Shown: positions 45,370 to 61,173, counted from the first letter of the stretch. The stretch: 64,000 bases of DNA from Promethearchaeota archaeon (GCA_016839705.1 JAEOTR010000025.1:1-64000); one strand, 5' to 3'. Made by a program: numbers and translations. Notes: generated by a model not told the origin, from the letters alone.

Positions 45370-46950
45370 GTGAAAATCATGATGGAAAAAGAAAGTAAGT
45401 TAAATTTAGATTTTTCAATTGTAATTAAAGCAAGAGAATCAGCAAAAAATATTGCATTAGATACTCAAAAATTCATAGATCAATACACCACTATTACAGT
45501 TGAAAGGACTGTATGTAGATTATTTGGTATTGACGGTGTAGATGAATTTGACGTTCCCTTGCCAAATGTTGTGGTTGATAGTATAAAAAACGACATAGCA
45601 ATTGGCGCAGCAATCCATATTGGAAACGCTATATTGCATATCAACCTTACACCTCAAGAAATTGCTGAAAAAGTTAGTAGGAGCGAATTAGATTTACTTA
45701 GTTTACCATTAAAAGACATTTCTGAGATTAAAACTAAAATTAATTCCATTGTTCAGGAAAAATTACGTCAAATTTCTCAAAATAAAAGCAAAAGAAATGA
45801 ATTAATTAATAAGTATGGAGAAAAGGATGGTCCCCTTATTTATGTTATTGTCGCAACAGGTAATATTTATGAAGACATTATCCAAGCTCAAGCAGCAGCG
45901 CGTCAAGGTGCAGATGTAATCGCAGTAATTAGATCTACAGTACAAAGCTTACTTGATTATGTTCCTTATGGTGCTACAACTGAAGGTTTTGGAGGGACTT
46001 ATGCGACTCAAGAGAACTTTCGACTAATGAGAAAAGCATTGGATGAGGTTAGTGAAGAATTAGGACGATATATTAGACTGACCAATTACTGCTCTGGCTT
46101 ATGTATGCCAGAAATTGCTGTAATGGGTGCTTTTGAAAGACTAGATATGATGCTAAATGATGCTTTATACGGAATTTTATTCCGTGACATCAATATGAAG
46201 AGAACGATTGTTGATCAATATTTTTCGAGAATGATAAATGCTTATGCAGGAATTATCATTAATACCGGTGAGGATAATTATTTAACCACGGCTGATGCAT
46301 ATGAATCGGCGCACACTGTTATTGCTTCTGAATTTATTAATGAACAATTTGCCTTACTTGCAGGATTAAGAGAAGAACTTATGGGTCTAGGACACGCCTT
46401 TGAAATGAATCCCGATTTGGAAAATGGCTTTTTATATGAACTTGCACAAGCTCAAATGGTAAGAGAAATTTTTCCGAACGCACCTCTTAAATACATGCCT
46501 CCGACGAAATATATGACTGGAAATATCTTTAAGGGGCATATTCAAGACGCTTTATTTAATATAATTACAATCATGACTAACCAACGAATCCATCTCTTGG
46601 GCATGTTGACAGAGGCTATACACACTCCCTTTATAGCTGATAGAGCATTATCAATAGAAAATGCGAAATATATTTTTAATAACCTGAAATCCCTGAGTGA
46701 AGAAATTACGTTTAAGAAAGGCGGTTTAATAGAAAAACGAGCTAACGAAGTTCTTAATAGTGCTTATAATTTGCTAAAGCAAATTGAAAAACAGGGACTA
46801 TTTACAACTATTGAAAAAGGCATTTTTGCGAATATTAAGAGATCCCCAGATGGTGGAAAAGGAGTGGAAGGAGTGATTCGAAAAAATAAGGACTATTATA
46901 ATCCATTTATGGATATTATGATTAATGAATTAAGAAAAGGAGGGAGTTAA
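45370..46950 (+). CDS. kamD: D-lysine/beta-lysine 5,6-aminomutase alpha subunit
   Basis: TVERTVCRLFGIDG, YVIVATGNIYED, NYCSGLCMPEIA, PLKYMPPTK. Confidence 0.95.
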   Translation: MKIMMEKESKLNLDFSIVIKARESAKNIALDTQKFIDQYTTITVERTVCRLFGIDGVDEFDVPLPNVVVDSIKNDIAIGAAIHIGNAILHINLTPQEIAEKVSRSELDLLSLPLKDISEIKTKINSIVQEKLRQISQNKSKRNELINKYGEKDGPLIYVIVATGNIYEDIIQAQAAARQGADVIAVIRSTVQSLLDYVPYGATTEGFGGTYATQENFRLMRKALDEVSEELGRYIRLTNYCSGLCMPEIAVMGAFERLDMMLNDALYGILFRDINMKRTIVDQYFSRMINAYAGIIINTGEDNYLTTADAYESAHTVIASEFINEQFALLAGLREELMGLGHAFEMNPDLENGFLYELAQAQMVREIFPNAPLKYMPPTKYMTGNIFKGHIQDALFNIITIMTNQRIHLLGMLTEAIHTPFIADRALSIENAKYIFNNLKSLSEEITFKKGGLIEKRANEVLNSAYNLLKQIEKQGLFTTIEKGIFANIKRSPDGGKGVEGVIRKNKDYYNPFMDIMINELRKGGS

Positions 46951-46951
46951 A

Positions 46952-47746
46952 ATGGGTGGCGGATTATATTCGACTGAAAAGAAGGATTTTGACGAAAAAT
47001 TAGATTTGACAAGAATTAAACCTTATGGGGATACTATGAATGATGGGAAAGTGCAAATAAGCTTCACACTACCTATTGAAGATAACGAAAAAGCAGTAGT
47101 AGCAGCTAAAGAGTTGGCAAATAAGATGGGATTAAAAGATCCCGAAGTAGCTTATCATACAGCTTTAGATAAGGGATTCACCTTCTTTGTAGTTTATGGA
47201 AAATCACTCCATTCAATTGATTACACTAAAATTCAAATAGATGCAGTAGAAGTAGATGTCATGTCGAAAGAAGAGATAAATCATTATATTCAGGATAAAA
47301 TTGGACGAAAATTAGTGATTCTTGGAGCTTCTACAGGCACAGATGCTCATACTGTAGGAATTGATGCAATTATGAATATGAAGGGTTTTGCAGGTCATTA
47401 TGGTCTTGAACATTATGAAATGATCGAAGCTATTAACCTTGGTAGTCAAGTAACGAATGAAGAATTTGTTAAAAAAGCTATAGAACTTAAAGCAGATGTT
47501 TTGCTTGTTTCACAAACGGTTACCCAGAAAAATATACATTTAACTAACTTAACTCAATTAGTTGACCTTTTAGAAGCTGAAGGAATAAGAGAGCATATTA
47601 TTTTAATTTGTGGTGGAGCTAGGATAGATAATGAATTAGCAAAAGAATTAGGATATGATGCTGGGTTTGGACCGGGTAGTTATGCTGAAATTGTCGCATC
47701 TTTTTTTATTAGAGAGTATGTAAGCAGAATGGAATTAAGCAAATAA
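46952..47746 (+). CDS. kamE: Lysine 5,6-aminomutase beta subunit (B12-binding)
   Basis: KPYGDTMNDGKVQ, DAHTVGIDAIMNMKG cobalamin/PLP motif, GYDAGFG. Confidence 0.95.
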   Translation: MGGGLYSTEKKDFDEKLDLTRIKPYGDTMNDGKVQISFTLPIEDNEKAVVAAKELANKMGLKDPEVAYHTALDKGFTFFVVYGKSLHSIDYTKIQIDAVEVDVMSKEEINHYIQDKIGRKLVILGASTGTDAHTVGIDAIMNMKGFAGHYGLEHYEMIEAINLGSQVTNEEFVKKAIELKADVLLVSQTVTQKNIHLTNLTQLVDLLEAEGIREHIILICGGARIDNELAKELGYDAGFGPGSYAEIVASFFIREYVSRMELSK

Positions 47747-47874: not shown

Positions 47875-49137
47875 ATGCCATCGTCAAAAGAATTTATTGA
47901 GATGGATGATAAGTATTGCGCACATAATTATCATCCTATACCAGTTGTTATTTCGCGTGCAGAGGGTGTTTGGGTTTATGATCCAGAAGGTAAAAAGTAT
48001 TTAGATTGTTTATCGGCATATTCAAGTCAGAATACGGGTCATTGTCACCCAGAAATCATCGCTGCTTTAACGGAACAAGCCAGTATTGTTACACTTACTT
48101 CACGAGCTTTTCATAATGATAAAATGGGACCATTTTTGAAAATGTTAGCTGAAGTTGTAGGACCACATATTAATGATCCAACAAATTCAGGCATAATGTC
48201 TATTCCAATGAATACCGGAACAGAAGCGGTCTCTACTGGTCTGAAAATGATAAGAGCTTGGGGGTATATTAAGAAAAAAATTCCCAAAAACGAAGCGGTC
48301 ATAATTGTATGTAGAAATAATTTTCATGGTAGAACCATAACTATATCAGGTTTTAGTTCTGACATATCAGCAGTGAGGTATTACGGTAATTTTGGACCCT
48401 ATACTCCCGGATTTAAAATAATTCCTTATGGAGATGCTGAAGAACTAGAGAATATTATTATAGATATTGGGCCGGAAAAAGTAGCAGCATTTCTATTTGA
48501 ACCAATACAGGGGGAAGCGGGGGTAAACGTTCCTCCTGAAGGATATTTGAAAAAAGTGAGAGAAATTTGTACGAAATATAATGTTCTTATGGTTCTCGAT
48601 GAAATTCAAACTGGATTTTGCAGAACAGGGAAATTTTTTGCCTGCGATCATGAAAATGTGAAGCCTGATATGTTATTACTTGGAAAAGCGCTTGGAGGTG
48701 GCATATATCCTGTTTCAGCATGTGTTACAACTAAAGATATTATTGGTCCTGATGTAATAAAACCTGGTACTCATGGAAGCACCTTTGGTGGAAACCCTTT
48801 AGCATGTGCTGTCGCAATGAAATCAATTGACATTCATTTGCGAGAGAATCTCGCTGAACGAGCAACGGAAATGGGGGCCTACTTTATTAAGAGATTGAGG
48901 GAGATTGGTGAAAAAAGAACTACAATTCCAATAAAAGATATTAGAGGTAAAGGATTACTGATTGCTGTCGAATTCACTGAAGATATCAGGCATATTGTTG
49001 AAGAATTAAAAGACAATGGCATTTTGGCAAAGGATACACATTCCACGACTATTCGATTTGCTCCACCTTTAGTAATTACACGAGAAGAAATTGATTGGGC
49101 TTTAGATATAATAGAAAAGGTAATTGTAAAACACTAA
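47875..49137 (+). CDS. rocD: Ornithine aminotransferase
   Basis: AHNYHPIPVV, DCLSAYS, LTSRAF, FHGRT, EPIQGEAG, LGKALGGG, HGSTFGGNPL. Confidence 0.93.
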   Translation: MPSSKEFIEMDDKYCAHNYHPIPVVISRAEGVWVYDPEGKKYLDCLSAYSSQNTGHCHPEIIAALTEQASIVTLTSRAFHNDKMGPFLKMLAEVVGPHINDPTNSGIMSIPMNTGTEAVSTGLKMIRAWGYIKKKIPKNEAVIIVCRNNFHGRTITISGFSSDISAVRYYGNFGPYTPGFKIIPYGDAEELENIIIDIGPEKVAAFLFEPIQGEAGVNVPPEGYLKKVREICTKYNVLMVLDEIQTGFCRTGKFFACDHENVKPDMLLLGKALGGGIYPVSACVTTKDIIGPDVIKPGTHGSTFGGNPLACAVAMKSIDIHLRENLAERATEMGAYFIKRLREIGEKRTTIPIKDIRGKGLLIAVEFTEDIRHIVEELKDNGILAKDTHSTTIRFAPPLVITREEIDWALDIIEKVIVKH

Positions 49138-49178
49138 ATGAATTTATACTATATATCATTCCGTATTTAAAAATAATC

Positions 49179-50090
49179 TTATCCTTTATATATCTGTGTT
49201 CCCGCTTTTCCTTCTAAAGCTTCAATAATTTTATCAATGGAAGTTATTATTGCTTTTTCTCCACCAGATTCTAAAAAATTTATAACTGCTTGAATTTTTG
49301 GACCCATACTTCCCGCGGGAAATTGTTCTTCTTCTAAATATTTCCTTGCTTCAGAGATTGATAATTTTTCTAAATCTTGCTGGTCTTGGGTTCCATAATT
49401 AAGAGAAACTTTTTCTACGTCAGTTGCTATTAATAGAATATCCGCGCCAATTTGTTCAGCTAATTTTGCACTTGCGAGATCTTTATCTATTACCGCTTCA
49501 ACCCCATAAAGTCTTTTTTTTTCTTTTATTACAGGAATACCTCCACCTCCGCATGCAATTATGATCCAACTTCCTAATTCCATTAATTTTTTTATCTCAC
49601 GCCATTGATAAATTTTTATAGGTTTTGGGGAGGGAACTACTCGGCGATAACCTTTTGCAGTTTTAACATACCCTGGTTTTGGCACTGAATAAGCAGGACC
49701 TATTGGTTTAGTGGGATTGAGGAATGCAGGGTCTTCTGCATCTACTTTAACATATGTTAAAATCGTAAGGAACAACTTTTCTTCATCAAGGTCGATTTTC
49801 ATTAGTTCTTCGTCTAAAGTTGATTCAATCATGAAGCCTATTTGCCCTTGAGTTTCAGCAACTAAGATTTGTAATGGTCTCTTCGAAACTGCCTTTGTAG
49901 CTTCTTGTTGTAGCAATAGATTTCCCACCTGTGGACCGTTTCCATGAGTTATTATTATATTATATTCCTTAGCTAATTGTGCTATTTGACTTATTGGTAC
50001 ATGCAAGTTCCTGAATTGCTCTTCTGTCGTACCTTCATCACCAAATTTTATTAAAGCATTCCCACCCAATGCTACAATTAACGTTTTCAA
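49179..50090 (-). CDS. arcC: Carbamate kinase
   Basis: VALGGNAL, THGNGPQVG, NPTKPIG, RRVVPSP, EAVIDKD, GSMGPK. Confidence 0.95.
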   Translation of the reverse strand: MKTLIVALGGNALIKFGDEGTTEEQFRNLHVPISQIAQLAKEYNIIITHGNGPQVGNLLLQQEATKAVSKRPLQILVAETQGQIGFMIESTLDEELMKIDLDEEKLFLTILTYVKVDAEDPAFLNPTKPIGPAYSVPKPGYVKTAKGYRRVVPSPKPIKIYQWREIKKLMELGSWIIIACGGGGIPVIKEKKRLYGVEAVIDKDLASAKLAEQIGADILLIATDVEKVSLNYGTQDQQDLEKLSISEARKYLEEEQFPAGSMGPKIQAVINFLESGGEKAIITSIDKIIEALEGKAGTQIYKG

Positions 50091-50376
50091 AGAATAACCT
50101 CTGAAGTTTAAAGAATTAACACAAATGGAAAAATTATAATATTTAGCTTATTATTTAAAATTTTTCTCGGAAAAATAACATTATTGCATATTGTATATAT
50201 AGATGATTTTGATTATTACCTAATGGTATTTATGCTAAATAATTGATTATATTTCTATTTCAAATAATAACCTCAAATATTAAGATATTAACACAATTGA
50301 AAAATTATTGATGTTTAACTTTATATTTAAAATTTGTCTAGTGGCTTTCTGGTTAATCAACGTAAACTGCTTTAAA

Positions 50377-51681
50377 CTAAGGAATAATTAATGAATATAA
50401 AGTTAAGTAGGTTATACTAACTCCAATATGCACTAAAGTCATCATAGAACCATATTTTAATAACGATATATAATTGAAATCTGATACATCATTTTTTTCT
50501 GCGAGGTTTAAAGTTATTAAATCACATGCCGCTCCCTGTGGTAAAAAATTCGAACCAATATTTATCCCTAGGAGAATTGCCATAATAATTAGGTTAGGAA
50601 CTTGCTCAATACCATATATATTTTGCATTAATGTGATAAATACGAGGGCTGTTGGAATTTGGGCTAAAAAACCTGATAACACACTTATCATCAACAAAAT
50701 GGTTATAGCAGCAATAAGAGCATTATCCGAGATAAAATTTCCTATTAAATCACCAATAATTATGAAAGTTCCATTTATTTGCATTGTAGCCATAAGGAGG
50801 AATATTCCGATAAAAAATGTAATAACCTTTAGATCAGTTTTTAGAAGAATTTCCGTAAAGTCCTTTCGATTTAAAAGACTCATTACGACAGCACCAACAA
50901 CAGCGACTATATAGGCCGAAGGGATAATAATAAATCCAATAATAATAATAACAAATGATATCGAATTGAAAACAAATTTCTTTTTATTAGCAATAACTAT
51001 GTTAGGATCCATGATATCAAGAAGAATTTTTCTATATTTTTCAGGAGGGGGTTCTTGCTTTCTAAGCATGGTAAAATCTACAAGGAAAAGGGTATAAATT
51101 AGAGTTGGAATAACTATCAGAGTAAAATTTGTTATAAAGTAAATGAAATTAAGTTAAAAAGCATTTGCAATTAGAATATTCTCAGCTGAACTAAAAGGAG
51201 TGTAAATCGATCCAATATTTATCGTAAAACTAAGACCAAAAAGATAAGGTGCGGGATTTATTTTCAAGATTCTACATGCTCGTATAACAATAGGTACAAA
51301 AATTATTCCAACTGTAATATCAGAAATAATTGCTGAAGTTAAACTCGCCACAAGACAGATCAAATAGAAAAATTTTCTATGATCAGCTTTTGTCCAATGA
51401 AGGGTTTTTAAGATAAGCCACCTAAATATTCTATTCTCTTCCATAATAGCAATTATAATTTGCATACAAATTATAAAAAATAACGGTTCAAATTCGACAT
51501 AGTTCATAAAGTCTGAAAACCCAACACCAAAGACACTACCGGCAACAACACATGCAATAACTGCTGCCAGTATTGTAAAAGAAATATAGTCAATTCGTTC
51601 ATTAGTAAAGATTACCATTATTGCAATAAACAGAACAGCTGAAACAATAATAGATGCAATTTCGTACATATTACTTTTCAA
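50377..51681 (-). pseudogene. SLC13/ArsB/NhaD-type permease interrupted by one in-frame TAA
   Basis: ORFs 51154..51681 and 50377..51069 share a frame; TAA at 51154-51156 is followed by continuous hydrophobic coding (ILIANAF*LNFIYFITNF...). Confidence 0.75.
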
Positions 51682-51771
51682 TTTTGATTATTAAGTTTTG
51701 ATTTTAATAACCTGTATAAAATTTTTATTTTTCCTTACAACAACAATCCTAAAGTGTAATCAACTGTTAAT

Positions 51772-52704
51772 TTAATATTTATCTCGTAAAAATAGCATAA
51801 TTGCTTTTTGAATGTGTAATCTATTTTCCGCTTGATCAAACACAACAGATTGGGGTCCATCAATTACTTCAGCAGTTTGTTCATACTCTCTCATTGCTGG
51901 TAAACAATTCATAAATATAGCATCTGATTTTGCTGTTTTCATAACTGTTGATGTAACTTGGAAAGGTAAGAAAGCTTTCTTACGATCTTCTTCTTGTTCT
52001 ATTGGAATTCCATAACTCATCCAGCTATCTGTATATATAACATCAGCATCTTTAGCAGCGGTTAGAGTATCATTCATTATTCTTATTTCCGCACCAGTAT
52101 TTTTTGATAAAGTTTCTACTTCCTCTAAAACAGATTTTTCAGGTGTATATTTAGAATCTTGAGGACATGCTACATCCATTTTTAAACCAAATAAAGCACA
52201 CATTCTCATTAGATCATACGTAACATTATTATACGCATCCCCAAAATAAGATAGCTTAAAATTATCTAGATTGTTTCGTTTTTCTTTTATCGTTTGAAAA
52301 TCTCCAAGAATTTGGCAGGGATGTGCAAAGTCATCAAGCATGTTAATTACAGGTACATCAGCATATTCAGCAAGATCCCACACATCTTTTCTGTTATAAA
52401 CACGTGCAGCAATTATATCTACAAATCTTGAAGCTACTTTTGCCGTATCACTAATATTCTCTTTTTTTCCTAAGGGAGAATCTTTAATTGAATAGAAAAT
52501 CGCATGACCCCCTAATTGTTGCATACCTGTTTCAAAGGAAATTCTAGTCCTTAAGGAGGGCTTTTCAAATAGCATTAGGAGTGTCTCTCCTTCTAAGGAA
52601 GACACGAACTTTTTAGGATTTTTCTTAATTTCAATAGATTTGTTAATAACTTTTTCACATTCTGCACGAGAGAAGTCAGAGACTTTTAATAGATTTCTTA
52701 CCAT
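51772..52704 (-). CDS. arcB: Ornithine carbamoyltransferase (probably catabolic)
   Basis: FEKPSLRTR, HPCQ, YTDSWMSYG, NCLPA, FDQAENRLH. Confidence 0.92.
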   Translation of the reverse strand: MVRNLLKVSDFSRAECEKVINKSIEIKKNPKKFVSSLEGETLLMLFEKPSLRTRISFETGMQQLGGHAIFYSIKDSPLGKKENISDTAKVASRFVDIIAARVYNRKDVWDLAEYADVPVINMLDDFAHPCQILGDFQTIKEKRNNLDNFKLSYFGDAYNNVTYDLMRMCALFGLKMDVACPQDSKYTPEKSVLEEVETLSKNTGAEIRIMNDTLTAAKDADVIYTDSWMSYGIPIEQEEDRKKAFLPFQVTSTVMKTAKSDAIFMNCLPAMREYEQTAEVIDGPQSVVFDQAENRLHIQKAIMLFLRDKY

Positions 52705-52788
52705 TTTGATTTCCTTTTAATTATGATAGCTAATATTTTTTAATAATATGAACTGATTAAAATCGTTTTGTACTCTAATATTACGACT

Positions 52789-52816
52789 TTTAATTTTATA
52801 GATTTAATTTTATAGA
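52789..52816. repeat. 14-nt tandem direct repeat in the divergent arcB/DRG promoter region
   Basis: TTTAATTTTATAGA twice in tandem. Confidence 0.5.
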
Positions 52817-52886
52817 TCTCAAAAGAGGTGCCGTGGGATAATAATATAGAAAAATTTTTTGATTATAATAGTTTTATATTAATGGA

Positions 52887-54035
52887 ATGAGTGAAAAAGT
52901 TGAAGATCGAATAAAAGAACTAGAAGAACGATTGGCTTCCACCAAGGTAAACAAAGCTACACAAAAAAGTATAAATTTCATTAAAGCACAATTAGCCAAA
53001 CTCAGAGAAAGCTTGATTCAAATCGTGAGTTCTAAAAAAGGCGGTGGTGGTGGCTTTGGGATTAAAAAATCGGGTGATGCTCAAGTAGCTTTTATTGGAT
53101 TTCCCTCCGTTGGCAAATCTTCATTACTTAACCTATTGACAGAAGGTGATACTCATTCAAAAGTAGCAGCTTACGATTTCACTACAATAACTGCCATTCC
53201 TGGTATGATGAATATTGAAGATGCCAAAATTCAGCTCATAGATTTACCTGGTATCATATTAGGGGCTGCTACTGGAAAAGGCAGAGGGAAGGAAGTCTTA
53301 GGAGCGGTACGATCCGCTGAATTAATTCTGATAATTATTTGTTTTCGAGAAGATGGAACCATCAATTTTCAAGATTTAAAAAAAATTAGAAATGAACTTC
53401 ATAATGCGGGGATCCGTTTAAATAGTCGACCATCACGGATTTCTATTAAAGAACAAACTCGAGGTGGGATTCACTACTCCTCAAAAGGATCTCAATTAAT
53501 GGATAAAGATGAGGTTAAAGCTTTACTAAACGAATTGGGTCTGCGCAATGCAGGTGTACATTTTTCTGAACCAAATATTACGGCAGATCAATTAATTGAT
53601 TTTATAATGGGAAATAGGGTATATACTAAAGAATTTATTGTAATTAATAAAGTAGATTTGATGAAGATTCCACTCTCCCCAGAAGAAATTACGGAATCTA
53701 TTGGGCATAATCATTGGGTTATGATTTCAGTAAAAAATCAAGAAAATATAAATACCCTTCGCCATCGGATTTTCCAAGAATTGAATTTAATTCGAGTATA
53801 TTTGAAGCCTCCTAAAGAAGAAGCAGATATGGAGGAACCGATAATTCTTCATAAGGGAGATACTATGAGAACTCTTTGTAGTAAGATTCATAAAAGGTTT
53901 GTAAAAGACTTTCGGTTTTCGCTAATATGGGGGAAATCAGCAAGACATCCCGGTCAAAAAATTGCCAACTTAAACCATATAATTGAAGATGGTGATATTA
54001 TTTCAATTTATACTAAAATGGGTATAAATGATTAA
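52887..54035 (+). CDS. DRG/RBG-family OBG GTPase with TGS domain
   Basis: GFPSVGKSS, AAYDFTT, DLPGII, NKVD, WGKSARHPGQ. Confidence 0.92.
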   Translation: MSEKVEDRIKELEERLASTKVNKATQKSINFIKAQLAKLRESLIQIVSSKKGGGGGFGIKKSGDAQVAFIGFPSVGKSSLLNLLTEGDTHSKVAAYDFTTITAIPGMMNIEDAKIQLIDLPGIILGAATGKGRGKEVLGAVRSAELILIIICFREDGTINFQDLKKIRNELHNAGIRLNSRPSRISIKEQTRGGIHYSSKGSQLMDKDEVKALLNELGLRNAGVHFSEPNITADQLIDFIMGNRVYTKEFIVINKVDLMKIPLSPEEITESIGHNHWVMISVKNQENINTLRHRIFQELNLIRVYLKPPKEEADMEEPIILHKGDTMRTLCSKIHKRFVKDFRFSLIWGKSARHPGQKIANLNHIIEDGDIISIYTKMGIND

Positions 54036-54118
54036 TAAAAATGAGGAAATCTAAATTTCATTGAGAAATACTATTTCAATCTGATCTCTTGTTGATAATT
54101 ATTTACGGATTTAAAAAG

Positions 54119-55285
54119 TTATTTTAATACTTCTTCATTAAAAAAGCCAGGCTTAGGAGTTAAGCTGTTTAAAATTAGTTTATCGGCAGGAGTGGTTCTT
54201 TCCGTCACAATACGAGCAATTAATTCTCCTAAACCTGGACCTAACATAAAGCCTTGTCCACACATACCTACGGCATTAATATATCCGCTTACTTCTTCAA
54301 CATTACCCACTATAGGATTTCCATCATGAGTCATTGGATATAATCCTCGCCATGTTCTCCTAATCTTAATATTCTTCAAGCGTGGTATAAGTTGAACCAT
54401 CCTTTTTGTAATTTGAGGTAGAAATGTACTTGTTTCTCTGCGGTCAATTCCGGGAATAGTTGGATTAGGTGTCAAACAAAAAATAATTTTCCCTTCGTTA
54501 TTTTGATAAAAATAGTAATTCTTTGAATTTCCAAATTTTTCATCCAAGCAAGGACTAATATCGACAACCATAGGGGAAAAGAACTTTTGAACAGGTTCAG
54601 TAATACCCGCTTCATGAGATTCTGGTTCTACAGGTAGATCTAAACCGATTAAATTCCCAATATCTTTTGCTTGAGCTCCAGCAGCATTAATAACAATATT
54701 AGTTTTATATTTTGACTTAGTTGTTTTTATGCCAACAATGCTTCTTTTTTTTAAATTAATATCAATAACTTCTTCATTAAAATGATATTTAGTACCTAAT
54801 TGCTTTGACCGACGATAGAATGAATGTAAAGATAGTAATGGAGAGGCATTCCCATCTTCAGGACTAAAAGTTCCTCCTACTAAACCTTCTTCGTTAATCC
54901 CTGGTATAAGTTCTTTAATTTTTTCAGTTTCGAGAAAATCGATATTCAATCCAAAACTCTTTTGGAGCTTAACTGTATCTTTAAGCATTTTTTTATCTTC
55001 ATCTGAAAATGCTAAAAAAGTATATCCTCCTTGATTCCACCAAATATCGTCTCCATACTCTTCTTCCCATTTGGAGAAAATCTCGATTGATCGCTTGCAT
55101 AATAATGCTTTACCTATGTTAGAATGAGTAGCTCGAATACCACCTATTGCATGTTTATTATCTGCTTGAGCAACTGAAGGTAATGAATCGAGGACAAGTG
55201 TTCTAAGCCCATCAGTAGCCATCGCTAAAGCTATTGGAACACCAACACTACCCGCACCAATGATAATTACATCATATTCAACCAT
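54119..55285 (-). CDS. FAD-dependent amine oxidoreductase (proline dehydrogenase / sarcosine oxidase beta-like)
   Basis: DVIIIGAGSVG, VINAAG, WRGLYPMTHDGNPIVG, GMCGQGFMLGP. Confidence 0.85.
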   Translation of the reverse strand: MVEYDVIIIGAGSVGVPIALAMATDGLRTLVLDSLPSVAQADNKHAIGGIRATHSNIGKALLCKRSIEIFSKWEEEYGDDIWWNQGGYTFLAFSDEDKKMLKDTVKLQKSFGLNIDFLETEKIKELIPGINEEGLVGGTFSPEDGNASPLLSLHSFYRRSKQLGTKYHFNEEVIDINLKKRSIVGIKTTKSKYKTNIVINAAGAQAKDIGNLIGLDLPVEPESHEAGITEPVQKFFSPMVVDISPCLDEKFGNSKNYYFYQNNEGKIIFCLTPNPTIPGIDRRETSTFLPQITKRMVQLIPRLKNIKIRRTWRGLYPMTHDGNPIVGNVEEVSGYINAVGMCGQGFMLGPGLGELIARIVTERTTPADKLILNSLTPKPGFFNEEVLK

Positions 55286-55287
55286 TG

Positions 55288-57372
55288 CTACACACTTTCC
55301 TTTTTATTTCTAATTCCGGCAAATATCCCCATAGGTACTTCAATAAATAATGGACGTTTCGTTCCCGGTGTAATGTTTTCAGTTGGTATTCCTTCTTCTC
55401 GAAATATCTGATTAATTAGATGAGTACAAGTTTTCGCTCCACAAGATCCCATTCCCGCTTTAGTTAAAGCCTTCAATTCATTGAAATCCTTTACGCCTGA
55501 TTGAATCCACTTTCTTATTTCCCCAACAGTGACACGTTCACATCTACAGACAATTGTATCATCTTCAGTAACAGATTTTTTATATTTTTCAATTGGTTCA
55601 TGATAACTAGTACTCACCAATTTTATCGCAACAGCTTGTTTCGCTATCTCTGAAGGCAATTTTATGGTTATCAATTGAGTTTTTGGAAATTCTGGAAGTA
55701 TTCTTGCTCTATGTATTTCATATTCTCCTAATTCTTTTTCATTGCTAACAACAATTATTTTATGACCTTTTTCTAACTTAGTCTCTGGAAGCTCTAATGG
55801 AAAAGTAACCAATGGATAATCTTTCTGTTTTCGATAATCATGTAATACTACTGCTAATCCAGGACAAACTGCAATACATTTCCCACATCCAAGACAATCT
55901 TTTTCTCCTTTAAAATATGGTAATTTAGTGATTAGATCATCTACGGTTTTAATTTGTCCTTGGTCACATACTGAAGTACATGGATTACATGGTATCTCTT
56001 GGGTGCAATAAAACACTGGATAAATTCCTTCTTCTTTAAAATGGAAATCGGCTTTTAAAGGTTGAGGAGGTTTCGCTTTCATTAATTTAGCAAATCGATG
56101 AAGATCATCCATTTTTTCTCTAAAAGGAATTCCTTTTTCCTGTAGAATTTTTAATGCTTCAATTCTCCCTGTAAATATTGCAGCAGAAGCTTCAGCTATT
56201 TCTTGAGCATCTCCTGCAACCCATACTTTCATATTAAATTCTTTTGCTTTTCGGAAAAACTCATCAACAGGATTTAAGCCAACAGCTATTAAAATTGTAT
56301 CACAGTTAAATGATTTTTCAGTACCAGAGAGAATTTTACCCTTTTTATCCAGTTGTCCGATAGTTATTGATTCTACTTTTTTTTCCCCGTTTGCTGAAAC
56401 TATAGTATGATTAGTATATATTGGAACACCTAAACGTCTCAATTTATCTTCATGAACTTTATACCCCCCGCATTGAGACATTGCTTCAATCAAACCAACA
56501 ACTTCAATTCCCGCTTGGATCGCGTGATACCCCGCAATTAATCCAACATTCCCTCCCCCAATAATGAAAACCTTTTCTGCTGCTTTTACCAGATCACGAT
56601 TAACTAAGGTTTGGAAAGCTCCAGCACCATAAACTCCTGGAAGTGTGTTTCCTGGAAAAATCAGCATCTTTTCTCGAGCTCCAGTGGCAATTAAAAGGCG
56701 TTTTGGTTTAACTAAAATGTATTCCTTATTATTTTTCAGAATTCCTACAAATCCATCACTAAATACTGCTATACACACACTATTTAACCAAACTTGAACA
56801 TTTGGTAATGATTCAATTGATTCACCAAGAATTCTTGCAATATCGATACCTCTTTTTCCTGCATAAACATCTTCTTGAGAGCCAAAAAATTTGTGGGTTT
56901 GGAGAACAAGCTTCCCCCCAAGTCGATCTTTGTCATCAATTAGAATCATATTAAGATTGTGTTCTCCTAGTATTTTAGTAGCAGAGAGTCCGGCAGGTCC
57001 CGCCCCTATTACTAGAATTTCAATATCGATTATTTCTGAATCTCCTATATCAACAAGAAAATCTTCAGCAGGCAATTCTGGTAAGCCATTACAGCTTTCA
57101 ATAATCATATCCCTTATTAGAGGAGTCATACATGCTTTAACGGGAATTCTATTAGCAATTACATTACATTGAGAGCATTGACCATTTGCGCAAAAAATTC
57201 CTTGAGGACTTCGATCTTTAACATGGTGACCAAAAGTTTTAATATTATTGAGAAAAAGAGCAGAAGATATAACCATACCTTCATACCCAGTTAAGATTTT
57301 CCCATCAAAGCTAAAATTAATTGCTTTTCTTTCTGGTATATCTAAAATTGGATGATTTTTTATATCTCCCAT
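55288..57372 (-). CDS. Proline dehydrogenase / sarcosine oxidase alpha-like multidomain Fe-S flavoprotein
   Basis: FCANGQCSQC 2Fe-2S, GAGPAG, ATGARE, CNPCTSVC and CLGCGKCIAVCP, BFD-like CRCERV...GMGSCGAKTC. Confidence 0.85.
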   Translation of the reverse strand: MGDIKNHPILDIPERKAINFSFDGKILTGYEGMVISSALFLNNIKTFGHHVKDRSPQGIFCANGQCSQCNVIANRIPVKACMTPLIRDMIIESCNGLPELPAEDFLVDIGDSEIIDIEILVIGAGPAGLSATKILGEHNLNMILIDDKDRLGGKLVLQTHKFFGSQEDVYAGKRGIDIARILGESIESLPNVQVWLNSVCIAVFSDGFVGILKNNKEYILVKPKRLLIATGAREKMLIFPGNTLPGVYGAGAFQTLVNRDLVKAAEKVFIIGGGNVGLIAGYHAIQAGIEVVGLIEAMSQCGGYKVHEDKLRRLGVPIYTNHTIVSANGEKKVESITIGQLDKKGKILSGTEKSFNCDTILIAVGLNPVDEFFRKAKEFNMKVWVAGDAQEIAEASAAIFTGRIEALKILQEKGIPFREKMDDLHRFAKLMKAKPPQPLKADFHFKEEGIYPVFYCTQEIPCNPCTSVCDQGQIKTVDDLITKLPYFKGEKDCLGCGKCIAVCPGLAVVLHDYRKQKDYPLVTFPLELPETKLEKGHKIIVVSNEKELGEYEIHRARILPEFPKTQLITIKLPSEIAKQAVAIKLVSTSYHEPIEKYKKSVTEDDTIVCRCERVTVGEIRKWIQSGVKDFNELKALTKAGMGSCGAKTCTHLINQIFREEGIPTENITPGTKRPLFIEVPMGIFAGIRNKKESV

Positions 57373-57418
57373 TCAGACTCTTCTTTTTAGTTTATTACTT
57401 TAAGTTTTTTAGCAATAT

Positions 57419-57556
57419 TTATAGCTTCTTATTAAAAAGCTGTTGTGAAATTGATAATGCACAGTGTTTTCCACATATCGAAAACACATCTTCATTTATA
57501 GGATGCTGTTTTTGAGGTTCTGTTGGATCAATGCTATGCTTAAATGAGTTTAAACA
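57419..57556 (-). pseudogene. Probable relic of the 3' end of a thiC/bza-family radical SAM gene
   Basis: Startless frame FKHSIDPTEPQKQHPINEDVFSICGKHCALSISQQLF resembles the ThiC C-terminus (F...IDP.....CSMCGxxCA). Confidence 0.5.
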
Positions 57557-59737
57557 TTATTGGTATGGTTTTATAACTTTGATGATATCTACAAAATCTA
57601 TTCCTAGCTCTTTCACTTTATTTATTGTCGGACATCCTTTTTGATTCCATCCACGTTCACTATAAACAGCATCTTGGAGTTTTGAATATTGTTCTTCTCG
57701 GTATTTTCTAAGTATCTTTATTTTATCTTCAGTATTTTTGCCACTTATCTCATATCCGAGAGCTTTTAATTGTTTATCATATCTTTCAGCACGACTTTCA
57801 TATTCTAAAGGCAATACCGGTCCCATGGCTCTATACGGAAGGTTTGAATCATGTTCTCTAAGTCCTCCACCTTGCCTTATGTTGAATATCCTTTGAAAAT
57901 TATATACCACCTCACTCATTTTAATGATGTCATCTGGTGTTGATTGACGTCCTGTGACAGCAGAGAAATATTGAGTATACCATGCAACATGATCAGGGAC
58001 TCTTGCCCTTACAAGTTCTCCTGTCTTAGGATCTTTAATAGGGTAGTCTGCTTGAGATTTAGGTTGAATATCATTCCATGGGAGCTTGCATAATCCACAA
58101 AGTCCAAACCAAGTCCGCCATAATGGAAACCAACGTAAAGCTTTTGCTTTATCCTCGAAAGTTGGAAGGGAATTTCTTATTACATCCTCGAATATTAACC
58201 AGGCTTCATCATGCTGAGGACCCTTATTTGTAAGTCCATATCCACCCTGTTGAGCTAATGATTCTTTAGTCACATATTCCGAAAACTCTAATCCTTTATG
58301 TTCCATTCCGATATCCTGTACAAAATTTGGATCTGCTCCATATTCCTTGACAAATATTGCTTTCATTTCTTTAATACCTTGACCTACAATTTTTCCAAAT
58401 CCTTCTCCCTTCGCCATTTGATGAATTAATTCTATTGCAGCTTCCACATTTCCGAAGCTAAGATCTAACCCACCCGTAACTTTTTTATTTAGGATACCCG
58501 CTTCATAACATTCCATCACAAAAGCAATACCAGTTCCCACACTTATTGTATCAAGCCCATATGTGTCACAGTAGAAATTTACTTCTAATATCCATTTAGG
58601 ATGCCATACGTCCCAATTTGAACCACATCCAGCAATAGTCTCATATTCGGGACCATCCACAATCACTTTTTGACCTTTGAAAGGACCAGTCATTATTTCA
58701 TAGTTATCTGAGTAATGTGAACAGCTAACAGTACACCCTATCCAGCATCCATCTGCCCCTTCTTTTCCAGAATAGATTCTTCTCATATTTTCCCTACTAT
58801 AAGGAATATCTTTTCCACTAATTTCTTTATGTGTACCATATCTGAAATTTTCAGTAGGTAATAGGTCGGTTACATTCATAATATCGGGAAGATGTCCGGT
58901 ACCTACTCTTCTCATTTCATTTTGAATAGGATCCAGTTCCATGACTTCTTGGCTGTGTTTTTTACCTAATTCTTTCGCTGCGTCTAGATTATCGGGGTTA
59001 TTTGATTTTACAGTAACTTTTGGGGTTCGACAAACCAATGCTTTGATCTTTTTATCTGCAAAAACAGAACCTATTCCCCCCCTACCAGCCTGTTTACATG
59101 AAGCCCAGTTCCGTCCCCGTACAAACCACGAAAAGTTTAGCATCCCCCATTTTGAATGTTTTGCTGCAGGACCAGTACTAACTACGGAAATGCGTTGTTT
59201 TTCATTTTCATCTTGAGCGTATTTCTCGGTTAATTGTTGGGTAAGTTCATGTGAATATATTGAAAGGTTATCATCTTCCTCTACAACTTTAATTTGGATG
59301 ATACCCTCAACACCATCGATATAAATAACAACTTCCTTTTCAGCTTTCCCTTGTATTTCAATCGTATCAAAACCCGAAAATTTTAAGTATGGACCAAAAT
59401 ATCCTCCCACATTGCTGTCAACAACTAATCCTGTTAAGGGGGAAATCGTGGTGACTATACTCTTCCCCGATCCTGGATAAAACACACTTCCTCCTAATGG
59501 GCCTGAAGCAATACAGATTTCATTCTCTGGGTCATTCCACTTTACTATTTTATCTTTTGGAAGGGAATTCCACATAAGCCATAGATCAAAACCTTTTCCA
59601 CCTATGAATTTATCTTTCATTCCATCTGAAACAGGTTTAATAGTGATTTCATTATTTGAAAGATTTATATATAAAGTTCGATTCATATAACCTTTCTGGG
59701 CATTACGAAGTTCATATTTTTTTTCTGCTAAAATCAA
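57557..59737 (-). CDS. Long-form aldehyde:ferredoxin oxidoreductase family protein
   Basis: QAGRGGIGSV, CWIGCTVSC, GPEYET, GLDTISVG, HKGLEFSEY, KGPQHDE. Confidence 0.9.
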   Translation of the reverse strand: MILAEKKYELRNAQKGYMNRTLYINLSNNEITIKPVSDGMKDKFIGGKGFDLWLMWNSLPKDKIVKWNDPENEICIASGPLGGSVFYPGSGKSIVTTISPLTGLVVDSNVGGYFGPYLKFSGFDTIEIQGKAEKEVVIYIDGVEGIIQIKVVEEDDNLSIYSHELTQQLTEKYAQDENEKQRISVVSTGPAAKHSKWGMLNFSWFVRGRNWASCKQAGRGGIGSVFADKKIKALVCRTPKVTVKSNNPDNLDAAKELGKKHSQEVMELDPIQNEMRRVGTGHLPDIMNVTDLLPTENFRYGTHKEISGKDIPYSRENMRRIYSGKEGADGCWIGCTVSCSHYSDNYEIMTGPFKGQKVIVDGPEYETIAGCGSNWDVWHPKWILEVNFYCDTYGLDTISVGTGIAFVMECYEAGILNKKVTGGLDLSFGNVEAAIELIHQMAKGEGFGKIVGQGIKEMKAIFVKEYGADPNFVQDIGMEHKGLEFSEYVTKESLAQQGGYGLTNKGPQHDEAWLIFEDVIRNSLPTFEDKAKALRWFPLWRTWFGLCGLCKLPWNDIQPKSQADYPIKDPKTGELVRARVPDHVAWYTQYFSAVTGRQSTPDDIIKMSEVVYNFQRIFNIRQGGGLREHDSNLPYRAMGPVLPLEYESRAERYDKQLKALGYEISGKNTEDKIKILRKYREEQYSKLQDAVYSERGWNQKGCPTINKVKELGIDFVDIIKVIKPYQ

Positions 59738-59829
59738 TTAATTACACCAAATCTAAAATAAAAATATTAAAAAATCATAGAGGCGGATTATAATAAAGAT
59801 TAAATTACCTATAATTTAAAAAAATATAG

Positions 59830-61173
59830 CTACTTTTTTAAGAATTTATTAATAAAATTATCAAGGACTTCTTCGATAGTAGGACTTCCAATTGATTCGA
59901 TATCATACGATACTTTCACAATAGGCTTATTTATTTTGATTAATTTGGTTAAATCTATAGGACTTCCATTCAAGATAATATCTGCCTTCACATTATTAAG
60001 TGTTTTTTCTAAGTCGTCTATTTGTTCATCAGTGTATCCCATTGCAGGTACTATTTGTGTAATTTGAGGGAAATCTTCGTAGATTTCTTTCATAGATCCT
60101 ACTAAAAATTTTCTTGGATCTACTATTTTTGCTTCTGCGTTTTTAGCAGCAACATATGCAGCTCCAATTGCCATGCCTCCATGAGTTAAAGTGGGTCCAT
60201 CTTCTACAACTACAACTTTCTTTCCCTTCAATCTTAAAGGATCTTCTGCTTTAACCACCGAGTTTGTATAAACTCTTATAGCATTTGGATTTAATTCATC
60301 GAGATTTTTTTCCACAATTTTAACATCTTCTGGTTTCGCACTGTCCATCTTATTTATTACAAACACATCAGCATATTTAGCATTAACTTCACCTGGGTGA
60401 TATTTCTTCTCATGTCCCGGTCTTAATGGATCAACGACTACGAAAAGTAAATCAGTAATATAGAAAGAAATCTCATTATTTCCCCCATCAAAAATAATTA
60501 CATCTGCTTCTTTTTCAGCTTCCCTAATTATCTTCTCATAATCAACTCCCGAATAAATCACTAATCCCTGCCTAATGTAAGGTTCATATTCTTCCCGTTC
60601 TTCAATAGTGCAATCGTATTTATCTAGATCCTCATATTTTTCAAACCTCATAACATTTTGTTGAATTAAATCACCATAAGGCATTGGTTCACGAATAGCT
60701 ACAACTTTGTATCCTTTACTCACTAAGTATCGATATGTAGCTCTAGAAACTTGACTTTTGCCACATCCAGTTCTTACCGCACAAATAGCAATTACCGGTT
60801 TATTAGCTTTAAGTTGAGTGAATCTCCCAGATATTAATCGATAATTAGCCCCTGCAGCAAGTGCTCTTGAAGCTTTATGCATTACCTCCTCATGAGACAC
60901 ATCTGAATAAGCAAACACAACTTCATCGATTTTATGTTTTTTTATATATTCTTCTAAAAGATCTTCAGAAACCATTGGAATTCCATTTGGGTATACATTA
61001 CCAGCTAGTTCTACGGGGAATTTTCTTTCGGTTTCTTCTGTTGTACCAACATTTTGTTCACCTGCTATAGTAAATGCAACAACCTCGTATTCTTCGTTAT
61101 CTCTAAAAACAGTATTGAAGACATGGAAATCGTAACCTAATGCACCTATGATAACAACTTTCTTTCTCTTCAT
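59830..61173 (-). CDS. arcE: Arginine synthetase ArcE-like P-loop protein (cyclic 2,3-diphosphoglycerate synthetase-like family)
   Basis: DFHVFN, AVRTGCGKSQ, PMPYGDL, TIEEREEYEP, DGGNN, EDGPTLTHGGM, PAMGY; arcB and arcC nearby. Confidence 0.72.
   Translation of the reverse strand: MKRKKVVIIGALGYDFHVFNTVFRDNEEYEVVAFTIAGEQNVGTTEETERKFPVELAGNVYPNGIPMVSEDLLEEYIKKHKIDEVVFAYSDVSHEEVMHKASRALAAGANYRLISGRFTQLKANKPVIAICAVRTGCGKSQVSRATYRYLVSKGYKVVAIREPMPYGDLIQQNVMRFEKYEDLDKYDCTIEEREEYEPYIRQGLVIYSGVDYEKIIREAEKEADVIIFDGGNNEISFYITDLLFVVVDPLRPGHEKKYHPGEVNAKYADVFVINKMDSAKPEDVKIVEKNLDELNPNAIRVYTNSVVKAEDPLRLKGKKVVVVEDGPTLTHGGMAIGAAYVAAKNAEAKIVDPRKFLVGSMKEIYEDFPQITQIVPAMGYTDEQIDDLEKTLNNVKADIILNGSPIDLTKLIKINKPIVKVSYDIESIGSPTIEEVLDNFINKFLKK

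What the first reader, a model, noticed from the sequence alone, without database searches (positions are those of the whole stretch)
47875..61173. Arginine synthetase (ArcE)-type arginine/proline pathway without arginine deiminase
Seen: ArcE-like P-loop protein, OTC, carbamate kinase, ornithine aminotransferase and a proline dehydrogenase-like pair within 13 kb, with no arcA or arginase in the window. Known: in Thermococcus kodakarensis ArcE reversibly converts arginine + ADP + Pi to citrulline + NH3 + ATP. Inference: two ATP per arginine by substrate-level phosphorylation, with reversible Pro-Orn-Arg interconversion.
Basis: partly seen in the sequence, partly recalled or inferred. Interest (0 to 1): 0.75.

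Follow-up and report, generated by a model that had tools for sequence, protein, structure and literature searches.

The report
Loki-archaeal arginine synthetase and proline island
A marine-sediment Loki-type Asgard archaeon carries the recently discovered arginine synthetase (ArcE) route, which most likely yields two ATP per arginine. Proline-oxidising genes and a tungsten-type aldehyde oxidoreductase sit beside it, in a lineage that lacks the usual arginine and proline synthesis genes.

Summary
All the genes named are present and intact at 47875-61173.

**Assignment**
- The 447-aa protein at 59830-61173(-) belongs to the ArcE (COG2403 'predicted GTPase') family, not to cyclic-2,3-diphosphoglycerate synthetases.
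- Its similarity to solved cDPGS is low: 17-19% identity, E 5e-5.
- Its predicted fold hits cDPGS first and LpxK 4EHY next, as published for TK2200.
- Relatives from many phyla sit directly beside carbamate kinase or OTC. One relative is fused to a carbamate kinase.
- Two closed Loki genomes have a tight arcE-OTC-CK-OAT operon.

**Genome context**
- No arcA, argG, argH, arginase, argC or proA was found in this 93%-complete genome.
- Across 41 genomes of the order, ArcE, carbamate kinase and the proline dehydrogenase occur in exactly the four genera that lack ArgG, ArgC and ProA.

**Reading**
- This is arginine catabolism with Arg/Orn/Pro interconversion, as in Thermococcus kodakarensis.
It may oxidise glutamate semialdehyde; this is speculative.
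- A CPS gene probably lies in an assembly gap.

**Limits**
- The TK2200 sequence itself could not be fetched, and nothing has been assayed.
- The pathway is known (Michimori 2024), with Lokiarchaeota named as carriers.
- This scan noted the same island earlier in another genome (e1-5570349).

The parts
59830..61173 (-). ArcE-family P-loop protein, 447 aa (P0001): candidate arginine synthetase / ATP-forming arginine deiminase
   Evidence: No NCBIfam model matches and Pfam gives only a weak cobW hit. The only PDB sequence hit is cDPGS 9sxb, E 5e-5. The AlphaFold model has pLDDT 92; Foldseek top hits are cDPGS 8oru/8ork at 17-19% identity, then LpxK 4ehy. It is 46% identical over its full length to the Ignisphaera aggregans homolog and 43-55% identical to homologs in 80 named genomes, 14 of which have carbamate kinase within 8 kb. 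It is a single copy in the genome.
57557..59737 (-). Aldehyde:ferredoxin oxidoreductase family protein, 726 aa. Proposed, without proof, to oxidise glutamate 5-semialdehyde.
   Evidence: AFOR_N and AFOR_C domains match at E 8e-48 and 6e-94. Best solved relatives are P. furiosus AOR 1aor (5e-52) and FOR 1b25 (1e-44). It lies between arcE and the dehydrogenase genes in genera g1 and g5.
55288..57372 (-). Proline-dehydrogenase alpha-like electron-transfer subunit, 694 aa, fused to 2Fe-2S, 4Fe-4S and BFD domains
   Evidence: Pfam finds Fer2_4, Pyr_redox_2, Fer4_7 and Fer2_BFD. PDB hits are SoxA 2gag_A at 2e-21 and PH1363 1y56_A at 7e-17. Its stop lies 2 bases before the start of the next gene.
54119..55285 (-). 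Proline-dehydrogenase beta-like catalytic flavoprotein, 388 aa
   Evidence: The Pfam DAO domain matches at 1e-57. The best PDB hit is 1y56_B, the P. horikoshii L-proline dehydrogenase beta subunit, at 8e-57 and 196 bits; the next best hit scores 91 bits. It is found in the same four genera as ArcE.
51772..52704 (-). Ornithine carbamoyltransferase (ArcB/ArgF), 310 aa
   Evidence: TIGR00658 scores 356 bits against a cut-off of 281. The putrescine carbamoyltransferase model falls below its cut-off.
50377..51681 (-). CitMHS/ArsB-type ion-transporter-superfamily permease, interrupted by one in-frame TAA at 51154-51156. Probably a pseudogene; its substrate is unknown.
   Evidence: The two ORFs match the N and C halves of PF03600. 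They form one reading frame with a single stop. Contigs of two sequencing runs from the same study carry the same letters there. The gene is not found at this position in relatives.
49179..50090 (-). Carbamate kinase (ArcC), 303 aa
   Evidence: TIGR00746 scores 370 bits against a cut-off of 358.
47875..49137 (+). Ornithine--oxo-acid aminotransferase (RocD/OAT), 420 aa
   Evidence: TIGR01885 scores 527 bits against a cut-off of 378. In closed genomes G032 and G038 its ortholog directly follows carbamate kinase in an arcE-OTC-CK-OAT cluster.

Best explanation
The locus encodes the arginine synthetase pathway of a Loki-type Asgard archaeon.

**Proposed steps**
- ArcE (59830-61173) converts arginine + ADP + Pi to citrulline + NH3 + ATP.
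- OTC phosphorolyses citrulline to ornithine and carbamoyl phosphate.
- Carbamate kinase makes a second ATP.
- OAT converts ornithine to glutamate 5-semialdehyde/P5C, which ProC (encoded elsewhere in the genome) reduces to proline.
- The adjacent proline-dehydrogenase-like pair feeds proline into the same P5C pool.

**Consequence**
The organism lacks ArgG, ArgH, ArgC and ProA. The module is therefore its means both of fermenting arginine for ATP and of interconverting arginine, ornithine and proline taken up from peptides.

**Shown and inferred**
- Shown: gene identities by curated models, family context, phyletic pattern and fold.
- Inferred: the ArcE reaction, the direction of flux and the ATP yield, all taken from T. 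kodakarensis.

**Sub-hypothesis (about 0.3)**
The AFOR gene between arcE and the dehydrogenase genes oxidises glutamate semialdehyde to glutamate and reduces ferredoxin.
For: **Gene assignments.** OTC, carbamate kinase and OAT pass their curated cut-offs.

**Fold of P0001.**
- P0001 has the family features published for TK2200. Homologs are annotated 'GTPase' or 'predicted GTPase'.
- It has low similarity to cDPGS.
- It has a P-loop fold that matches LpxK 4EHY (compare PMC11032458).

**Gene neighbourhood of the family.**
- Among 80 named loci from more than 20 phyla, carbamate kinase lies within 8 kb in 14 cases, mostly directly downstream. OTC does so in 7.
- Protein P0128 fuses an amino-acid-kinase domain to an ArcE domain.
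- Closed Loki genomes G032 and G038 have arcE-OTC-CK-OAT on one strand. The gaps in G032 are 191, 52 and 20 bp.

**Absences.**
- arcA was absent from all 41 genomes of the order searched.
- argG and argH are absent here. The lyase-family hits are purB and fumC/aspA.
- The only arginase-family gene is agmatinase-like and sits next to deoxyhypusine synthase.

**Phyletic pattern.**
- ArcE, carbamate kinase and the proline dehydrogenase beta subunit occur in genera g1, g2, g5 and g9.
- ArgG, ArgC and ProA occur in the other seven genera and, within the four, only in one genome (G023).

**Proline branch.** ProC is present. The dehydrogenase beta subunit is closest to P. horikoshii L-proline dehydrogenase.
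Against: - No enzyme here has been assayed.
- The characterised TK2200 sequence could not be fetched, so orthology rests on family-level evidence.
- The genes are not one operon in this genome. A GTPase gene and a broken transporter interrupt them, and in congener G006 the carbamate kinase gene lies about 2.35 Mb from arcE.
- The genome is 93% complete with 6.8% contamination, so absences are provisional. Congeners agree with them.
- A CPS gene probably exists in an assembly gap, so an anabolic direction is also possible.
Confidence: 0.75

Rival explanations
1. ArcE works mainly in the synthetic direction. With CPS, OTC and ArcE but no ArgG/ArgH, the cell makes arginine from ornithine, carbamoyl phosphate, free ammonia and ATP. 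The ornithine derives from proline through the proline dehydrogenase pair and OAT.
For: - argG and argH are absent here and in 23 of 24 congeners.
- 22 of 24 congeners have a full carB. This genome's contig C90 starts with the small ORF that lies about 940 bp downstream of carB in closed congener G006.
- The ArcE reaction is near equilibrium, and Michimori et al. raise this role for organisms with CPS, ArcB and ArcE but no ASS/ASL (PMC11032458).
Against: - The de novo ornithine genes argC and proA are absent too, so this would be salvage from proline, not de novo synthesis.
- A catabolic carbamate kinase is co-located.
- In CPS-less G032 and G038 it is co-transcribed with arcE.
- The two roles do not exclude each other.
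Confidence: 0.15
2. The protein is an ArcE-family enzyme with another substrate, such as another guanidino or ureido compound, and its proximity to OTC and carbamate kinase reflects a related but different pathway.
For: - There is no direct comparison with TK2200, and only one family member has been characterised.
- Only 14 of 80 diverse homologs have carbamate kinase nearby.
- Some distant family members have degenerate P-loops.
Against: - The Loki proteins keep the P-loop and all motifs conserved in the core family.
- They sit in arcE-OTC-CK-OAT operons whose other products act on citrulline, carbamoyl phosphate and ornithine.
- Lokiarchaeota are named as arcE carriers in PMC11032458.
Confidence: 0.08
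3. The protein is a cyclic 2,3-diphosphoglycerate synthetase, as NCBI names many of its Asgard homologs.
For: NCBI gives that name to close homologs. cDPGS is the top structural and sequence hit among solved structures.
Against: - Identity to M. fervidus cDPGS is only 17-19% with TM-scores of 0.41-0.47, and phmmer gives E 5e-5.
- No NCBIfam model matches.
- The neighbours are not a 2-phosphoglycerate kinase.
- The organism is a low-GC marine-sediment archaeon. That cDPG is a thermoprotectant of hyperthermophilic methanogens is from my own knowledge.
- The family's conserved neighbours are carbamate kinase and OTC.
Confidence: 0.02

Closest known systems
Arginine synthetase pathway of Thermococcus kodakarensis: ArcE TK2200, ArcB TK0871, ArcC TK2158 (Michimori, Yokooji & Atomi 2024, PMC11032458; 2026 follow-up PMC13260591)
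   Same: - It has the same set of enzymes (ArcE-family protein, OTC, carbamate kinase) with no arcA, argG or argH.
- Ornithine is passed on towards proline.
- The predicted fold has the same relatives: LpxK 4EHY, with only distant similarity to cDPGS.
- Related closed Loki genomes without CPS but with pyrB parallel the 2026 finding that arginine supplies carbamoyl phosphate.
   Different: - The organism is a mesophilic-looking, low-GC Asgard archaeon from marine sediment.
- The genes are clustered here, whereas they are scattered in T. kodakarensis judging by their locus numbers.
- OAT, a proline-dehydrogenase-like pair and an AFOR are co-located with them.
- This genus probably keeps CPS.
- Direct sequence identity to TK2200 was not measured.
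Classical arginine deiminase (ADI) pathway, arcABC
   Same: The OTC and carbamate kinase steps and the overall conversion of arginine to ornithine, CO2 and 2 NH3.
   Different: No ArcA was found in any of the 41 genomes searched. The first step is taken by a P-loop enzyme that should conserve an extra ATP.
L-proline dehydrogenase PDH1/PDH2 of Pyrococcus horikoshii and Thermococcus (structure 1Y56)
   Same: The beta subunit is a close homolog (E 8e-57). An alpha-like Pyr_redox_2 subunit is encoded immediately upstream.
   Different: The alpha-like protein is 694 aa and carries fused 2Fe-2S, 4Fe-4S and BFD-type domains. Only its first 270 or so residues align to PH1363. Substrate specificity is untested: related enzymes oxidise sarcosine, opines, D-hydroxyproline or glycine (from my own knowledge).
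Cyclic 2,3-diphosphoglycerate synthetase of Methanothermus fervidus (8ORK, 8ORU, 9SXB)
   Same: The same superfamily and overall architecture; it is the top structural hit.
   Different: Identity is 17-19%, and the genomic context and phyletic distribution differ.

Membership tests
Arginine synthetase ArcE (TK2200 family) | Sequence orthology to the characterised TK2200 protein | not testable with these tools
   No tool returned a Thermococcales sequence. Proxies are 46% full-length identity to the Ignisphaera aggregans (Desulfurococcales) homolog and the fact that Lokiarchaeota and Desulfurococcales are named as arcE carriers in PMC11032458.
Arginine synthetase ArcE (TK2200 family) | P-loop NTPase fold resembling LpxK (4EHY), with only low similarity to cDPGS | tested here: met
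   The model has pLDDT 92. Foldseek gives cDPGS 8oru/8ork at 17-19% identity, then LpxK 4ehy at E 6e-9 with TMt 0.60. A TGCGKS P-loop is present.
Arginine synthetase ArcE (TK2200 family) | Genomic association with arcB and/or arcC | tested here: met
   The window itself shows it. G032 and G038 have arcE-OTC-CK-OAT operons. Carbamate kinase lies within 8 kb in 14 of 80 diverse loci. P0128 is a carbamate-kinase-like/ArcE fusion.
Arginine synthetase ArcE (TK2200 family) | Stands in for ArcA in genomes that carry ArcC | tested here: met
   arcA was not found in 41 genomes. Strong carbamate kinase hits are confined to the genera that carry ArcE.
Arginine synthetase ArcE (TK2200 family) | Catalyses Arg + ADP + Pi <-> Cit + NH3 + ATP | not testable with these tools
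   This needs an enzyme assay.
Cyclic 2,3-diphosphoglycerate synthetase | Close sequence similarity to the characterised M. fervidus enzyme | tested here: not met
   phmmer gives E 5e-5 and 25 bits. Structural alignment gives 17-19% identity.
Cyclic 2,3-diphosphoglycerate synthetase | Partnered with a 2-phosphoglycerate kinase gene | tested here: not met
   The flanking genes are an AFOR and a DUF389 protein. A genome-wide search for 2-phosphoglycerate kinase was not run.
ADI pathway (arcABC) | Arginine deiminase ArcA present | tested here: not met
   TIGR01078 gives no hit in G000 or in 40 relatives. The search is positive in control genomes.
Archaeal L-proline dehydrogenase (PDH1, 1Y56) | Beta (catalytic) subunit homologous to PH1364 and encoded next to an alpha subunit | tested here: met
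   1y56_B matches at E 8e-57. The alpha-like gene ends 2 bases before it.
Archaeal L-proline dehydrogenase (PDH1, 1Y56) | Alpha subunit equivalent to PH1363; L-proline as substrate | tested here: inconclusive
   Only residues 10-272 align to 1y56_A (7e-17). SoxA scores slightly better, and extra Fe-S domains are present. The substrate is untested.
Tungsten/molybdenum aldehyde:ferredoxin oxidoreductase (AFOR) | AFOR_N and AFOR_C domains | tested here: met
   The Pfam domains match at 8e-48 and 6e-94. The closest solved relative is 1aor at 5e-52. The substrate is not testable here.
OTC / carbamate kinase / ornithine aminotransferase | Score above the curated NCBIfam equivalog cut-off | tested here: met
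   TIGR00658 scores 356 against 281, TIGR00746 370 against 358, and TIGR01885 527 against 378.

The most novel reading that the evidence does not exclude
In these Loki archaea the AFOR encoded between arcE and the proline dehydrogenase genes is a glutamate-5-semialdehyde:ferredoxin oxidoreductase that replaces NAD-dependent P5C dehydrogenase. Arginine and proline would then both be fermented to glutamate, yielding two ATP from arginine plus low-potential reducing power for H2 or formate transfer to syntrophic partners. Run in reverse, the same enzyme could supply glutamate semialdehyde in lineages that lack ProA and ArgC.
Probability: 0.3. Interest if true: 0.7.

Novelty: new member of a known kind. 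Interest (0 to 1): 0.45.

Why it matters
- **Energy metabolism.** Asgard archaea are the closest known relatives of eukaryotes, and the cultured ones live by syntrophic amino-acid fermentation. Showing that a large Loki genus uses the energy-conserving ArcE route instead of arginine deiminase would add a concrete, testable item to their energy budget.
- **Nutritional dependence.** These archaea have lost the standard arginine and proline synthesis genes. That explains a dependence on external peptides.
- **Annotation.** Many database entries for these proteins read 'cyclic 2,3-diphosphoglycerate synthase' or 'GTPase' and would need correcting.
- **The AFOR link.** If real, it would give a physiological substrate to one of the many orphan tungsten oxidoreductases.

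Tried and rejected
**Attempts to fetch TK2200 or any Thermococcales ArcE, all without success**
- Three cluster look-ups returned only unnamed or non-Thermococcales proteins.
- The genome-contig scan returned 80 loci, none from Thermococcales.
- A profile search returned only Thermoproteota.
- The protein atlas gave only 'putative GTPase'.
- The supplements of PMC11032458 are not held.

**Other dead ends**
- The first literature search failed.
- No open paper links formaldehyde ferredoxin oxidoreductase, semialdehydes and proline.
- No open paper discusses citrulline and arginine in Prometheoarchaeum.
- No RNA holder was listed for the locus, so nothing can be said about expression.

**Ideas considered and rejected**
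- *carB absent.* Rejected: the fragment on C90 matches a small ORF that follows carB in congener G006.
- *The arginase-family hit is an arginase.* Rejected: it is agmatinase-like and lies beside deoxyhypusine synthase and ArgRS.
- *An ALDH acts as a dedicated P5C dehydrogenase.* Not supported: none of the three ALDHs reaches that model's cut-off, but a generic ALDH cannot be excluded.
- *AFOR is linked to the proline dehydrogenase genes outside g1 and g5.* Not found: in g2, g9, g10 and g11 the 56-64% identical AFORs sit in unrelated contexts.
- *The eukaryotic (Creolimax) homolog is specifically related to Asgard ArcE.* It is sister to the Loki clade in a FastTree tree. However, its best hits are spread over DPANN archaea, WOR-3 bacteria and Asgard archaea at 46-52% identity, so this is not established.
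Full report
**Organism and locus**

The window is the first 64 kb of an 82-kb contig (C3) of a 3.36-Mb metagenome-assembled genome. The genome has 97 contigs, is 93% complete and has 6.8% contamination. GC content is about 31-33%.

The closest relatives of its proteins are Loki-group Asgard archaea, at 80-93% identity. DNA of the locus is held by three marine-sediment metagenome runs of one study.

**Gene content of 47875-61173**

ORF listing and Pfam/NCBIfam scans give the following genes.

| Coordinates | Strand | Assignment | Evidence |
|---|---|---|---|
| 47875-49137 | + | OAT | TIGR01885, 527 bits vs cut-off 378 |
| 49179-50090 | - | carbamate kinase | TIGR00746, 370 vs 358 |
| 50377-51681 | - | CitMHS-type permease | see below |
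| 51772-52704 | - | OTC | TIGR00658, 356 vs 281 |
| 52887-54035 | + | DRG-type GTPase | MMR_HSR1 + TGS |
| 54119-55285 | - | DAO flavoprotein | Pfam DAO, 1e-57 |
| 55288-57372 | - | 694-aa Fe-S flavoprotein | Fer2_4/Pyr_redox_2/Fer4/BFD |
| 57557-59737 | - | AFOR-family enzyme, 726 aa | AFOR_N and AFOR_C |
| 59830-61173 | - | 447-aa P-loop protein, P0001 | no NCBIfam hit; weak cobW hit in Pfam |

The permease is one reading frame interrupted by a single TAA at 51154-51156. Contigs of two runs from the same study show the same letters there.

The additions are the AFOR, the GTPase and the broken permease. The genes form at least three transcription units: arcE-AFOR-alpha-beta, OTC-permease-CK, and OAT downstream of kamDE on the other strand.

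**Is P0001 an ArcE?**

Michimori et al. (PMC11032458) describe TK2200 as follows:
- It was a hypothetical protein or 'putative GTPase' with no characterised homolog.
- Its fold is similar to P-loop NTPases such as LpxK 4EHY.
- It has low similarity to cDPG synthetase.
- It is sometimes encoded next to arcB or arcC.
- It is complementary to arcA among genomes that carry arcC.
- It is present in Lokiarchaeota, Desulfurococcales and many bacteria.

P0001 fits each of these points:
- Its homologs are named 'predicted GTPase', 'GTPase' or, by NCBI, 'cyclic 2,3-diphosphoglycerate synthase'.
- The only solved structure found by sequence is cDPGS 9sxb, at E 5e-5.
- A confident model (pLDDT 92) hits cDPGS 8oru/8ork at 17-19% identity and then LpxK 4ehy.
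- It is 46% identical over its full length to the Ignisphaera aggregans homolog.
- It is 43-55% identical to homologs in 80 named genomes of archaea and bacteria.
- In 14 of those 80 loci a carbamate kinase lies within 8 kb, usually directly downstream. OTC does so in 7 and an OAT-like gene in 4.
- Metagenomic protein P0128 fuses an amino-acid-kinase domain to an ArcE domain.

The flanking genes are not a 2-phosphoglycerate kinase. I could not obtain the TK2200 sequence itself, so direct orthology is untested.

**Synteny in relatives**

- In closed genomes G032 and G038 (the other family, f2), arcE, OTC, carbamate kinase and OAT lie on one strand. The gaps in G032 are 191, 52 and 20 bp.
- In congeners of the window's genus (G002, G024) and in genus g5 (G030), the order is arcE-AFOR-alpha-beta ... 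OTC ... CK, as in the window.
- The filler genes between these units vary.
- In closed congener G006 the carbamate kinase gene lies about 2.35 Mb from arcE.

**Genome-wide pathway context in G000**

- No arcA was found.
- No argG was found.
- No argH was found. The two lyase-family hits are purB and fumC/aspA.
- No ornithine cyclodeaminase was found.
- No argC or proA was found.
- The one strong arginase-family gene is agmatinase-like and sits beside deoxyhypusine synthase and ArgRS.
- ProC is present, and so is pyrB.
- No carA was found.
- carB appears only as a 229-aa C-terminal-like ORF at the very start of the 2.7-kb contig C90.
- In closed congener G006 an equivalent 239-aa ORF lies about 940 bp downstream of a full carB. 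In addition, 22 of 24 congeners have a full carB.
- CPS is therefore most likely present in G000 but unassembled.

**Phyletic pattern across 41 genomes of the order**

| Feature | Genera g1, g2, g5, g9 | The other seven genera (f3, f4, g8, g10, g11) |
|---|---|---|
| ArcE | 18/24, 3/3, 2/2, 3/3 | none |
| Strong carbamate kinase hits | present | none |
| Proline dehydrogenase beta | present | none |
| ArgG, ArgC | only in G023 (g1) | present in nearly all |
| ProA | none | present in most |

- Two further g1 genomes lose arcE only to contig ends (G011 and G024).
- Four g1 genomes lack ArcE, carbamate kinase, AFOR and the proline dehydrogenase together.
- arcA was found nowhere.
- These genomes are related and so are not independent samples. 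The partition is nevertheless clean.

The pattern points to ArcE as part of a catabolic and salvage module in lineages that gave up de novo arginine and proline synthesis, much like T. kodakarensis.

Genera g2 and g9 mostly lack carB but keep pyrB. This parallels the 2026 finding that arginine supplies carbamoyl phosphate in CPS-less Thermococcales (PMC13260591).

**Proposed mechanism**

1. Arginine + ADP + Pi gives citrulline + NH3 + ATP (ArcE).
2. Citrulline + Pi gives ornithine + carbamoyl phosphate (OTC).
3. Carbamoyl phosphate + ADP gives ATP + CO2 + NH3 (carbamate kinase).
4. Ornithine gives glutamate semialdehyde/P5C (OAT), which goes to proline (ProC) or to glutamate.
5. Proline enters the same pool through the dehydrogenase pair. 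Its beta subunit is closest to P. horikoshii L-proline dehydrogenase (1y56_B, E 8e-57).

The published ArcE equilibrium is near unity. With CPS probably present, the reverse direction (proline to ornithine to citrulline to arginine) is also open.

The gene assignments are shown. The fluxes and the ATP yield are inferred.

**The AFOR**

The AFOR lies 92 bp downstream of arcE and 184 bp upstream of the alpha gene. It keeps that position in g1 and g5.

No P5C dehydrogenase equivalog was found. The three ALDHs of G000 score 156-287 bits against a cut-off of 660 for TIGR01237.

This suggests that the AFOR oxidises glutamate semialdehyde with ferredoxin as acceptor. The suggestion does not prove it, for three reasons:
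- AFORs that are 56-64% identical in g2, g9, g10 and g11 sit in unrelated contexts.
- Generic ALDHs exist in this genome.
- No non-Asgard ArcE locus carries an AFOR.

I put this at about 0.3. That is not independent evidence.

**Novelty**

The pathway and its presence in Lokiarchaeota are published. New here are:
- the explicit Loki gene organisation;
- the genus-level complementarity with ArgG, ArgC and ProA;
- the co-location with proline dehydrogenase and AFOR genes.

I class it as a new member of a known kind, with a moderately interesting untested extension.

Noticed in passing
window 37056-47746: A lysine-fermentation gene set lies directly upstream of OAT. It comprises a class-III aminotransferase (37056-38309), a family III CoA-transferase (38288-39505), a beta-keto acid cleavage enzyme Kce (39544-40368), lysine 2,3-aminomutase KamA (42267-43505) and D-lysine 5,6-aminomutase KamD/KamE (45370-46950, 46952-47746). 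Together with the Arg/Pro genes this makes a basic-amino-acid catabolic region of about 24 kb.
   Followed up: partly
window 50377-51681 (-), stop at 51154-51156: A CitMHS/ArsB-type permease between OTC and carbamate kinase is broken by a single in-frame TAA. Contigs of two runs from the same study carry the same letters there. The gene is absent from this position in relatives.
   Followed up: yes
G000:C90:6-611 (L005) and G006:C1:2161205-2161846: A stand-alone ORF of about 230 aa resembles the C-terminal 200 residues of CarB. In closed congener G006 it lies about 940 bp downstream of the full carB. In G000 it opens a 2.7-kb contig, which implies that carB sits in an assembly gap.
   Followed up: partly
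G000:C97:16862-17755 (L116, L117): A second carbamate kinase (346 bits) lies directly after an FdrA-type acyl-CoA synthetase and a BMP-family ABC transporter. This is probably a separate carbamoyl-phosphate-yielding module of the oxamate or purine-breakdown type.
   Followed up: partly
P0128 (metagenomic protein, 766 aa): A natural fusion joins an amino-acid-kinase (carbamate-kinase-like) domain, residues 3-292, to an ArcE-family domain, residues 329-755, which is 46% identical to P0001.
   Followed up: partly
P0131 (Creolimax fragrantissima, EukProt) and P0292: Eukaryotic ArcE homologs exist. In a FastTree tree the Creolimax protein and the unnamed P0122 are sister to the Loki clade with 99% local support. 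However, the Creolimax protein's best hits are spread over DPANN archaea, WOR-3 bacteria and Asgard archaea at 46-52% identity, so a specific Asgard affinity is not established.
   Followed up: partly
G032:C1 and G038:C1 (closed Loki genomes; L025, L026): These genomes have a tight arcE-OTC-CK-OAT operon and pyrB but no carB. Carbamoyl phosphate for pyrimidines must therefore come from arginine or from carbamate kinase, as shown for T. kodakarensis in 2026.
   Followed up: partly
Asgard homologs P0002, P0005, P0009, P0017 and others: NCBI names many of these proteins 'cyclic 2,3-diphosphoglycerate synthase'. Given 17-19% identity to the real enzyme and the arc-gene context, this is probably a misannotation.
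   Followed up: yes
G023:C7:741489-743780: One congener, G023, carries both the ArcE island and an adjacent argG-argC pair. It is the only genome of the four ArcE genera that does.
   Followed up: no
window 52887-54035 (+): A DRG/Obg-like GTPase with a TGS domain is inserted between OTC and the dehydrogenase genes. At this position congener G024 has an amidohydrolase-family gene, and between OTC and carbamate kinase it has a radical-SAM gene and an unassigned ORF. The GTPase is therefore probably a bystander.
   Followed up: partly
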